A stretch of DNA of 64,000 nucleotides, taken from NCBI RefSeq assembly GCF_003334405.1, contig NZ_QOWM01000001.1, one strand, 5' to 3'. The stretch's first letter is position 1. Each line of letters opens with the position of its first letter. Position numbers: made by a program. Origin of the DNA: Escherichia coli. Lineage in GTDB: Bacteria > Pseudomonadota > Gammaproteobacteria > Enterobacterales > Enterobacteriaceae. This document shows positions 21,501-24,500 of the stretch, piece after piece.

Positions 21501-24500
21501 TTATCCGCCTGTTTACTATCCCGGAAAGCACCTGGCCGCTGGTCACCATGGTGGTGATTATGGGGCCAATCTCGTTCTGGGGGAACGTTGTCCCTCGTGC
21601 CTTCGAACGTATTGGCGGTACGGTGTTGGGGTCGATTTTAGGTCTTATCGCTCTGCAACTGGAGTTAATTTCGTTACCGCTGATGTTAGTCTGGTGCGCG
21701 GCGGCGATGTTTCTTTGCGGTTGGCTGGCGCTGGGCAAGAAACCGTATCAAGGATTATTGATTGGGGTGACGCTGGCAATTGTTGTGGGTTCCCCGACAG
21801 GTGAAATTGATACGGCGTTATGGCGAAGCGGCGATGTGATCCTCGGCTCTTTACTGGCAATGTTGTTTACCGGTATCTGGCCACAACGGGCGTTCATCCA
21901 CTGGCGCATTCAACTGGCGAAAAGTCTGACCGAGTATAATCGGGTCTATCAATCTGCATTCTCACCGAACTTACTCGAACGCCCACGTCTGGAAAGCCAT
22001 CTACAAAAACTGCTGACCGATGCCGTGAAAATGCGTGGGCTGATTGCGCCCGCCAGCAAAGAAACCCGTATTCCCAAATCGATATATGAAGGTATCCAGA
22101 CCATTAACCGCAATCTGGTTTGTATGCTGGAGTTGCAAATCAATGCGTACTGGGCCACGCGCCCCAGCCATTTCGTGTTATTGAACGCGCAAAAACTTCG
22201 TGATACCCAGCACATGATGCAGCAAATACTGCTGAGCCTTGTTCATGCGCTGTACGAAGGTAATCCGCAGCCGGTTTTTGCCAATACGGAAAAATTGAAC
22301 GATGCTGTGGAAGAGCTGCGTCAGTTGCTCGATAACCACCATGACCTGAAGGTTGTGGAAACACCAATCTATGGTTATGTGTGGCTGAACATGGAAACGG
22401 CACATCAGCTTGAGTTGCTATCGAATCTGATTTGCCGGGCCTTGCGCAAATAATTCCTGAACTTCAGAATCATCTTGCTGCTGCTTCGATTCAGCAAGGA
22501 TAAAGGGTATGATAGTGAAAAGGGATAAAAGCATTGTCATCTGCGGCAGCTATGAGTAATGTTGGCCCTAACGAATAGCGGTTGCTTAAACGAATCCGAC
22601 TCTCACATTATCAGGGGTATAAAAATGGAAACTACCAAGCCTTCATTCCAGGACGTACTGGAATTTGTTCGTCTGTTCCGTCGTAAGAACAAACTGCAAC
22701 GTGAAATTCAGGACGTTGAGAAAAAGATCCGTGACAACCAGAAGCGCGTCCTGTTGCTGGACAACCTGAGCGATTACATCAAGCCAGGGATGAGCGTTGA
22801 AGCAATCCAGGGCATCATCGCCAGCATGAAAGGTGACTATGAAGATCGCGTTGACGATTACATCATCAAAAATGCCGAGCTCTCCAAAGAACGCCGCGAT
22901 ATCTCCAAAAAGCTGAAAGCTATGGGCGAAATGAAAAACGGCGAAGCGAAGTAATTCCCGTTTTATTCAATGAGGGTTGCCCGGCAACCTTCATTGCTCA
23001 TTGATTCTTATCTGTGTATCACCGTCATCATTCTCATCTGAGAACCAATCGAAATTAACAACAGCCTTCTTCTGTATGCAGCAAGGCAAAAAGTTCTGTA
23101 ACTCCATTGTTATTAACTGCACTGGTTACTAACACGTTGTGCGCTCCAGCTTCCCGTAACCAACTTTTCACCAAAGATATTTGTTCCATGCTGGCTAAAT
23201 CTGCTTTGGTTACTACTCCAATGACCGGGTGATTCATGGCCCGGTAGGGCGTTTTTACCTCTAATTCCTGCTTCAGCGCTGAGATTCCTGCTTGTTGCCG
23301 GAAAAGCAGGCACCTGCCGTCTGAACGGTATCGATCCGGAAGCGTATCTGCGCCATATTCTGAGCATACTGCCGGAATGGCCCTCCAACCGTGTTGACGA
23401 ACTCCTGCCATGGAACGTAGTTCTCACCAATAAATAAGCGTCAATACGGTGCTCCGTTGACGCTTACTTTAATCCGTTTTCTGAGCTTAGATTTTTCTGT
23501 TCCTACCCAGACCGTGGATTTGGAATTCATTTTTTGTCAGGTCAATGCTAATCGTTAAAACGGCCATAACGCACCTCCACTGGAAGGTTTATCAGTAATA
23601 TCCTACCGTTGCTTCATGGTCGGGGCGTCCATTCCATTATTATCGGTTTTCCTTTCTGTTTATAAATGAAAACGCCAGCTGTATTCAGGCTGGCGTCAGG
23701 GGAAATGAAGCCTGTTGAGTGAGATTCACCGGTTCTGGTGCAGAAGCTGCAGATGGCGCAGGGTAAGGACATCTTCTCTTGCCTGCTTAATACAGGACAA
23801 CAGTGCTGTTTCTGTGGTTAATGGCACTATACCCTGCATCACTGCATTGTCTTACAGCAACTGGTGAGGGCTGGCATAAGTTGCCGGTGTTTCGGTAGAG
23901 TCACGGTCATCCACCACGCGGAGTGAATAACCGTTTTCAGCGGCCTTATTAATCAGTTCAGTGATATTAACACCATCAATGTCAACGACAATGTGCCCCA
24001 TATCCAGCGCCTGTACGTTAACGCTGTCGGCTTCCAGTGTCATCATTTCGCCTCCGGATACTTACCCAGGGTAATGTTATTTACCGTTCTGTAATTGTCG
24101 CGGGTCATCAGGCCGGTCGCCCTGCGAGCCCGGAGGATATCGATGCTGTTTATTAACTGAGAGCGGGTACCGGGGTATACAGCAGGGAGGGGGGCTGCAG
24201 GAAGGCAACTGGAAGGATAGGAACTGAGCGGTTCAGTCGCGGAAATCAGTTGCAGAGCTGTAATGATATCTCCGGGAGTGCTGCGTTGGTAGGGGCATCC
24301 CGGGATAGAGAAATTTTAGCACTTTGCCCTGAATGATTGTAGACGTTCCGAGTACTCGTACCGGTCTGAGTTATTACAGTTAGATATTCACTTTTTCTCC
24401 CGCATACTTCACATCTGTCAACGACGGATGAAAAGTGGTTCTTCCGCAACCTGGGTGGAAGAAAATGGATGAAACTTTCTGGCGAACAAGGATCTAAGCT

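What the first reader, a model, noticed from the sequence alone, without database searches (positions are those of the whole stretch)
23852..24318. Toxin-antitoxin-like remnant: truncated CbtA-family toxin translationally coupled to a small downstream ORF
The toxin frame has no start codon (closed by a stop at 24316-24318) yet retains a C-terminus that I recognise as the CbtA/YkfI/YpjF family. Its stop overlaps the ATG of the 64-aa ORF in an ATGA arrangement with a good RBS. The small ORF may therefore still be expressed from read-through transcription with no functional partner.
Basis: partly seen in the sequence, partly recalled or inferred. Interest (0 to 1): 0.4.

Follow-up and report, generated by a model that had tools for sequence, protein, structure and literature searches.

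The report
Decayed CbtA toxin stub plus yeeW
This is the leftover right-hand end of the well-known E. coli CP4-44-type cryptic prophage: a dead 41-codon tail of the CbtA toxin gene followed by the intact small gene yeeW, left behind when a deletion removed the rest of the island. It is ordinary and is already annotated this way in public genomes.

Summary
On the minus strand, a frame open from 24315 to 24046 ends in a TGA (24045-24043). That stop overlaps the ATG (24046-24044) of a 64-aa ORF, with a GGAGG 4 nt upstream.

Only the last 41 codons of the frame (24168-24046) come from cbtA. They are identical to K-12 CbtA residues 84-124. The 64-aa ORF is identical to K-12 YeeW (b2006).

They lie antisense to the tail of a zinc-ribbon gene and its spacer.

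The truncation is a deletion between two GTACC pentamers. It removes 19,446 bp relative to E. coli strain 7/2, or 605 bp relative to strain NCCP12480, which has already lost most of the island. It is not caused by the neighbouring ISL3 remnant, which sits at the same site in 2,835 of 5,426 complete E. coli genomes.

The antitoxin gene cbeA, the operon's upstream region, and CbtA residues R15 and F65 (needed for toxicity) are all gone.

YeeW is itself only the N-terminal domain of a 162-aa DUF5983 protein. Its function is unknown, and its expression here was not tested.

NCBI's PGAP pipeline already annotates the identical junction in strains DLI.5a and AST46 as a partial cbtA pseudogene plus yeeW. 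Verdict: a known pseudogene remnant of low interest.

The parts
24043..24168 (-). cbtA 3' remnant: codons T84-K124 plus the TGA stop. A pseudogene lacking its N-terminal 83 codons and its start codon.
   Evidence: BLASTP 41/41 identical to K-12 CbtA 84-124. Pfam PF06755 model 84-112/112, E 1.2e-7. PGAP annotates the same 126 nt as partial cbtA in DLI.5a.
24166..24170 (-). GTACC microhomology at the deletion junction. On the + strand, 24166-24171 reads GGTACC.
   Evidence: Alignment A1. In strain 7/2 the two GTACC copies lie 19,446 bp apart.
23852..24046 (-). yeeW: intact 64-aa ORF containing only the DUF5983 N-terminal domain.
   Evidence: 64/64 identical to K-12 b2006. Pfam DUF5983_N PF25638 1-56/56, E 2.3e-29. 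Full-length relatives are 162 aa.
24051..24055 (-). Shine-Dalgarno GGAGG for yeeW, lying inside the end of cbtA.
   Evidence: Read. Identical in K-12.
24043..24108 (-). The only ORF with a canonical start left in the cbtA frame (21 aa, MTRDNYRTVNNITLGKYPEAK). No evidence that it is used.
24169..24318 (-). It is accidental open frame.
   Evidence: No similarity to CbtA. The frame closes earlier in DLI.5a.
24171..24226 (+). 3' stub of a zinc-ribbon-domain gene. It is frameshifted here by a 1-nt loss in a poly-G run, and its stop is at 24224-24226.
24415..26176 (+). Degenerate ISL3-family insertion sequence. Its 43-nt inverted repeats lie at 24415-24457 and 26134-26176. The transposase has an internal stop. 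It marks the left border of the island.
   Evidence: The same end and flank occur in 2,835 of 5,426 genomes.
23726..23818 (-). C-terminal stub of a DUF957 gene. The deletion that shortened DUF5983 to YeeW is older and is shared with K-12.
   Evidence: PGAP annotation. Alignment to the full module of plasmid PN43.

Best explanation
This is the non-functional right-hand end of a CP4-44-type cryptic prophage or genomic island in the E. coli chromosome, lying between the cobUST side and tmaR(yeeX)-yeeA-sbmC.

In most E. coli, an old, dead ISL3 element is followed by two zinc-ribbon genes and about 19 kb of island. The island ends in yeeS-yeeT-cbeA-cbtA-yeeW.

In this lineage, a deletion between two GTACC pentamers fused the 3' end of the zinc-ribbon gene to codon 84 of cbtA. 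One pentamer lies in the last codons of the zinc-ribbon gene and the other in cbtA codons 83-84. The loss may have happened in one step (19,446 bp relative to strain 7/2). Alternatively it happened in two steps, through an intermediate like strain NCCP12480 (first about 18.8 kb, then 605 bp).

The deletion removed the antitoxin gene cbeA, the operon's upstream region, the cbtA start codon, and the parts of CbtA that bind MreB (R15) and FtsZ (F65). What remains of cbtA is a 41-codon tail that cannot be toxic and has no start codon. It is a pseudogene.

yeeW survives intact, with the RBS and the ATGA stop/start overlap it also has in K-12. YeeW is itself only the N-terminal third of a DUF5983 protein of unknown function, cut down by an older deletion.

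Shown: sequence identity, the junction, the absence of partner genes from the window, and the public annotation. Inferred: loss of toxicity, lack of meaningful yeeW expression, and a slippage or microhomology mechanism for the deletion.
For: -: identity of the two pieces to K-12 CbtA 84-124 and to YeeW.
- the Pfam match to CbtA_toxin covers the C-terminal end only, and the YeeW match is DUF5983_N only.
- the identical junction is annotated by PGAP as partial cbtA plus yeeW in DLI.5a and AST46.
- comparison with NCCP12480 and with the full island of strain 7/2 places the breakpoints at two GTACC copies, 605 bp and 19,446 bp apart.
- the ISL3 remnant with the same flank is present in 2,835 genomes, so it predates the truncation and is not its cause.
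- no cbeA, yeeT or yeeS in the window, and only one in-frame ATG, which is late.
- no promoter-like site upstream on that strand.
- PMC5624674: R15C and F65S together abolish CbtA toxicity, and both residues lie in the deleted part.
- PMC7660256: in K-12, yeeW belongs to the yeeRST-cbeA-cbtA-yeeW operon.
Against: Nothing contradicts this explanation. Three points remain open:
- The promoter scan is a crude consensus scan, so weak or non-sigma-70 promoters are not excluded. Read-through from the php operon is also not excluded: the hairpin after php at 26504-26530 has no T-run on the minus strand.
- Whether the deletion took one step or two cannot be decided.
- Whether YeeW has any function is unknown anywhere. 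It is still listed in the K-12 y-ome (PMC11551758).
Confidence: 0.93

Rival explanations
1. The neighbouring ISL3 insertion sequence truncated cbtA, either by inserting into it or by an IS-mediated adjacent deletion.
For: An ISL3-family element lies 245 bp upstream of the junction. This was the first guess from the ORF list.
Against: The breakpoint (24166-24170) is not at the IS end (24415). A zinc-ribbon gene stub and a native spacer lie between them. The same dead IS, with the same flank, is present in 2,835 genomes that mostly keep the full island. The junction carries a 5-bp direct-repeat microhomology that is unrelated to the IS.
Confidence: 0.03
2. yeeW is a functional stand-alone small-protein gene that is still expressed here. 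Expression would come from read-through transcription and from translational coupling to the residual 21-codon ORF (24108-24043). Retention of the cbtA tail would then be selected rather than accidental.
For: The yeeW ORF, its SD and the ATGA overlap are intact and identical to K-12. Two deletion variants keep exactly the same 126-nt cbtA tail: this window's type and the VE-F10 type. DUF5983 genes always follow cbtA (PMC10790755).
Against: YeeW is only the N-terminal domain of a 162-aa protein, and the DUF957 gene after it is also a stub, so the whole module tail is decayed. The flanking non-coding DNA is as conserved as the ORF (2 SNPs in about 660 nt against K-12), so ORF conservation reflects recent ancestry and not selection. 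No promoter was found. No function is reported.
Confidence: 0.08
3. The 90-codon frame is a new fusion gene encoding a protein with a CbtA C-terminal module.
For: The frame is open for 90 codons.
Against: It has no ATG, GTG or TTG before codon 70. Its 5' half is antisense to another gene's tail. The frame is broken by a 1-nt poly-C length difference in the two other genomes with the same junction. No promoter was found.
Confidence: 0.01

Closest known systems
cbeA-cbtA-yeeW (yeeU-yeeV-yeeW) locus of cryptic prophage CP4-44, E. coli K-12 (b2004-b2006)
   Same: Same chromosomal position next to yoeF-tmaR(yeeX)-yeeA-sbmC. The DNA is 100% identical from cbtA codon 84 through yeeW. The stop/start overlap and the RBS are the same.
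   Different: cbeA and cbtA codons 1-83 are deleted, along with everything of the island between the cbtA codon-84 junction and the zinc-ribbon gene stub beside the ISL3 remnant. No type IV toxin-antitoxin pair remains.
RefSeq/PGAP annotation of E. coli DLI.5a (NZ_CP103972.1, NZD79_RS04130/RS04135) and AST46
   Same: Identical junction and identical 126-nt partial cbtA pseudogene, followed by yeeW (WP_000988600.1), the DUF957 stub and the ISL3 pseudogene.
   Different: A 1-nt length difference in the poly-C run upstream of the junction. The tmaR-yeeA haplotype also differs (17 SNPs in 2.7 kb).
Full-length cbeA-cbtA-DUF5983-DUF957-DUF4942 module (for example E. coli PN43 plasmid NZ_MG591698.1)
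   Same: Same gene order, and the same overlap between the end of cbtA and the start of the DUF5983 gene.
   Different: There the DUF5983 protein is 162 aa with a C-terminal domain and DUF957 is 65 aa. Here only the 64-aa N-terminal piece (YeeW) and a 30-codon DUF957 tail remain.

Membership tests
CbtA/YkfI/YpjF type IV toxin (Pfam PF06755) | Significant sequence match to the CbtA_toxin domain | tested here: met
   Pfam E 1.2e-7, but only model positions 84-112 of 112. BLASTP E 2e-28 with 41/41 identity to K-12 CbtA 84-124.
CbtA/YkfI/YpjF type IV toxin (Pfam PF06755) | Complete ORF with a start codon and the full domain (about 124 aa) | tested here: not met
   Codons 1-83 are deleted. There is no in-frame canonical start before 24108. 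By descent it is a cbtA pseudogene, not a functional family member.
CbtA/YkfI/YpjF type IV toxin (Pfam PF06755) | Residues that mediate MreB (R15) and FtsZ (F65) binding and toxicity | tested here: not met
   Both positions lie in the deleted segment (K-12 sequence; functional data from PMC5624674).
CbtA/YkfI/YpjF type IV toxin (Pfam PF06755) | Cognate CbeA/YeeU-family antitoxin gene immediately upstream | tested here: not met
   tblastn of K-12 CbeA against the whole 64-kb window finds nothing. Upstream lie a zinc-ribbon stub and the ISL3 remnant.
DUF5983 family (YeeW) | N-terminal domain PF25638 | tested here: met
   E 2.3e-29, model positions 1-56 of 56.
DUF5983 family (YeeW) | C-terminal DUF5983 domain (PF19419), as in the 162-aa members | tested here: not met
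   The ORF ends at 64 aa. Alignment with the PN43 module shows the C-terminal part deleted together with the 5' part of DUF957. The same holds in K-12.
DUF5983 family (YeeW) | Position immediately downstream of cbtA, overlapping its end | tested here: met
   ATGA overlap here and in K-12, and a 10-nt overlap in PN43. PMC10790755.
ISL3 family insertion sequence (neighbour) | ISL3 transposase and terminal inverted repeats | tested here: met
   NCBIfam NF033550, 239 bits against a cutoff of 180, for the N-terminal ORF. 43-nt inverted repeats, 81% complementary. The transposase is interrupted by an internal stop, so the element is degenerate.

The most novel reading that the evidence does not exclude
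Two deletion variants found in different flanking haplotypes both end within 1-3 bp of the same GTACC/TACC in cbtA, and both keep exactly the last 41 cbtA codons plus yeeW. One is this window's type. The other is the VE-F10 type, whose left breakpoint lies 217 bp closer to the IS. If the two events were independent, this would point either to a deletion hotspot at that site or to selection for keeping the cbtA tail as a translational-coupling leader for a functional YeeW mini-protein.
Probability: 0.05. Interest if true: 0.3.

Novelty: already known. Interest (0 to 1): 0.06.

Why it matters
It matters very little. It is one more example of cryptic-prophage decay in E. coli, in which a toxin-antitoxin module is lost and only a harmless toxin tail and a y-ome ORF remain. 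Its practical value is for annotation. The 90-codon open frame should not be called a gene. The cbtA stub should be flagged as a pseudogene. Toxin-antitoxin census tools should not count this locus as a CbtA system.

Tried and rejected
- IS-mediated truncation was the first hypothesis. It was rejected after the junction was mapped 245 bp from the IS end and the IS was found at the same site in 2,835 genomes.
- NCBIfam, PHROGs and PADLOC gave no informative hit for the cbtA stub or YeeW. There were only two weak PHROGs hits of unknown function.
- An Rfam scan of the whole window found no RNA family between 23 and 25 kb.
- Promoter and terminator scans found no promoter-like site on the minus strand upstream of yeeW.
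- A repeat search in the NCCP12480 intermediate found no secondary structure or longer repeat that would explain why two deletions share a right endpoint.
- A literature search for yeeW and DUF5983 found no functional data.
- I did not use the large protein-database searches or structure prediction, because the identity was settled by exact matches.

Full report
**Observation**

The feature lies on the minus strand. Translating 24330-24043 on that strand gives a TAA at 24318-24316, then 90 sense codons, then TGA at 24045-24043. The next ORF, 24046-23852, encodes 64 aa beginning MMTLEADSVNVQALD.

Its ATG (24046-24044) and the upstream TGA (24045-24043) overlap as ATGA. A GGAGG at 24055-24051 lies 4 nt before the first ATG and 7 nt before the second (read).

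The upper frame has no ATG, GTG or TTG until 24108-24106. From there it could encode only a 21-aa peptide.

**Identity of the pieces**

BLASTP of the 90-residue translation against K-12 CbtA (b2005, fetched) gives E = 2e-28. Residues 84-124 match at 41/41, and nothing upstream matches. Pfam finds CbtA_toxin PF06755 with E = 1.2e-7, covering only model positions 84-112 of 112.

The 64-aa ORF is 64/64 identical to K-12 YeeW (b2006). It matches the Pfam N-terminal DUF5983 domain, PF25638, end to end (E = 2.3e-29).

From the junction through yeeW the DNA is 100% identical to K-12. It then differs at only two positions over the next roughly 660 nt.

The window is an E. coli chromosome. It reads sbmC, yeeA, tmaR(yeeX), a EutP-like remnant (yoeF in K-12), then yeeW and the cbtA stub. 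After that come an ISL3 remnant, a ggt fragment, a php-like gene and cobUST.

Only 24168-24043 derives from cbtA. This is the 126-nt partial CDS that PGAP annotates in strain DLI.5a.

Positions 24169-24315 are antisense to the last codons of a zinc-ribbon-domain gene and to the spacer that separates that gene from the ISL3 element. On the + strand the zinc-ribbon stub occupies 24171-24226.

That stretch is open in the cbtA frame only by accident. The two other genomes with the same junction have 7 rather than 6 C in a poly-C run, and there the frame closes 24 codons above the junction.

**How the truncation arose**

Megablast against 5,426 complete E. coli genomes shows that homology to intact cbtA-yeeW loci starts at the junction. 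The 101-nt sequence spanning the junction occurs in full in only two genomes, DLI.5a and AST46.

The ISL3 end together with its flank occurs in 2,835 genomes. In strain 7/2 it is followed by two zinc-ribbon genes and about 19 kb of island. That island includes an Inovirus Gp2-family gene, IS100, GTPase, dynamin-like and patatin-like genes, DUF932, an antirestriction gene, yeeS, yeeT, cbeA, a frameshifted cbtA and yeeW.

In strain 7/2 the sequence GTACC occurs near the 3' end of the zinc-ribbon gene and again at cbtA codons 83-84. The window has exactly one copy, with the flanks joined, which corresponds to a loss of 19,446 bp.

Strain NCCP12480 has a different, partial loss of the island. It keeps the zinc-ribbon remnant, 63 nt of cbeA and a full-length frameshifted cbtA. 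Relative to that strain the window lacks 605 bp between the same two GTACC copies.

The truncation is therefore a microhomology deletion, in one step or two. The ISL3 element is an old, fixed, degenerate border element and not the cause. Its 43-nt inverted repeats lie at 24415-24457 and 26134-26176, and its transposase carries an internal stop.

**Functional reading**

- **Toxicity.** The deleted part of CbtA contains R15 and F65. The R15C and F65S substitutions disrupt binding to MreB and FtsZ respectively, and together they abolish toxicity (PMC5624674; residue numbering checked on the K-12 sequence).
- **Antitoxin.** cbeA is absent from the entire 64-kb window, as are yeeT and yeeS (tblastn).
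- **Operon.** In K-12, yeeW is listed as the last gene of the yeeRST-cbeA-cbtA-yeeW operon (PMC7660256). That upstream region is gone here.
- **Promoters.** A consensus scan finds no sigma-70-like promoter on the minus strand between yeeW and 26700.
- **Read-through.** The only minus-strand source upstream is the php operon. It ends in a 12-bp GC-rich hairpin (26504-26530) that lacks a T-run on that strand. Low-level read-through across 2.4 kb of antisense IS therefore cannot be excluded, but nothing supports it.

I infer that the cbtA stub is inert and that yeeW is silent or at most weakly expressed. This is an inference and has not been shown.

**YeeW itself**

Complete modules read cbeA, cbtA, DUF5983 (162 aa), DUF957 (65 aa) and DUF4942 (for example PN43 plasmid NZ_MG591698.1).

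Alignment shows that YeeW corresponds to the first 55 or so residues of the DUF5983 protein. The rest of that gene and the 5' part of DUF957 are missing, which leaves a DUF957 tail at 23726-23818. This older deletion is shared with K-12.

No function is known for DUF5983 or YeeW. The literature notes only that DUF5983 genes always follow cbtA (PMC10790755; bioRxiv 10.64898/2026.06.09.728211). YeeW is still listed in the K-12 y-ome (PMC11551758). PHROGs, PADLOC and NCBIfam add nothing.

**Comparison with what is known, and novelty**

This is the CP4-44-type cbtA-yeeW tail. By descent the stub is a cbtA pseudogene. It fails every functional criterion for a CbtA toxin: complete domain, start codon, R15/F65, and an adjacent antitoxin.

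The identical structure is already annotated in RefSeq for DLI.5a and AST46 as partial cbtA, yeeW (DUF5983 family), partial DUF957 and an ISL3 pseudogene. It is therefore already known and ordinary.

**A minor oddity**

Four other genomes (VE-F10, LR-64-2, PEC399, OZ121069) have a junction whose left end is 217 bp closer to the IS. Its right end lies within 1-3 bp of the same position in cbtA, reading ...GTGAA|TACCCGC.

Their yeeW carries a SNP at 23933 that is shared with NCCP12480 and absent from the window and from DLI.5a. This suggests, but does not prove, that the two deletions were independent. E. coli recombination makes the flanks mosaic. I found no repeat or hairpin that explains a hotspot.

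This oddity is the basis of the low-probability novel case.

**Verdict**

Interest is low.

Noticed in passing
window 24166-24387; L008 (VE-F10) 3100-3140; L003 (NCCP12480) 3337-3960: Three configurations of the ISL3-to-cbtA joint exist among complete E. coli genomes. Two of them have different left breakpoints (217 bp apart) but right breakpoints within 1-3 bp of each other in cbtA (GTACC/TACC). The yeeW SNP at 23933 groups VE-F10 with NCCP12480 and not with this window, hinting at independent events or a deletion hotspot.
   Followed up: partly
window 24190-24200 (poly-G on + strand, poly-C on - strand): The homopolymer run is 6 nt here and 7 nt in DLI.5a, AST46, NCCP12480 and strain 7/2.
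   Followed up: yes
window 25215-25886 (+), inside the ISL3 remnant: The second ORF of the broken ISL3 transposase has an N-terminal stretch that matches the start of the IS21-family transposase model better (E 4e-14, model positions 2-100) than the ISL3 model. This may be a shared HTH region or a mosaic element.
   Followed up: no
window 21500-24165 versus 24387-27400: The flanks are mosaic. The tmaR-yeeA side is nearly identical to strain 7/2 (1 SNP in 2.2 kb) but differs from DLI.5a at 17 sites. The php-ISL3 side is closest to NCCP12480 and DLI.5a (2 and 3 mismatches, the NCCP12480 alignment also having 2 gaps), against 16 mismatches for 7/2. This implies recombination around the junction.
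   Followed up: partly
window 26170-26500 and 26504-26530: A frameshifted C-terminal fragment of gamma-glutamyltransferase lies between the ISL3 remnant and a php-like gene (26538-27572, - strand). A 12-bp GC-rich hairpin sits between the two convergent genes. It has a T-run only on the + strand.
   Followed up: no
window 36064-40372, 54676-54751, 55743-55832: There are four tRNA-Asn genes and one tRNA-Ser(CGA). The asnT-like copy at 54.7 kb is followed about 1 kb later by the tRNA-Ser gene. The window is collinear with DLI.5a at about 98.5-99.5% identity only up to about 46.3 kb, with weaker, patchy matches to about 54.1 kb. DLI.5a carries the yersiniabactin island (irp1, ybtU, ybtT, ybtE, fyuA) beyond that point, so this strain may lack that island here.
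   Followed up: no
window 11841-11964 (-) and 14703-14777 (+): Rfam finds the his operon leader (131.6 bits) and the enterobacterial sRNA STnc240 (68.2 bits). Both are expected features of this chromosomal region.
   Followed up: no
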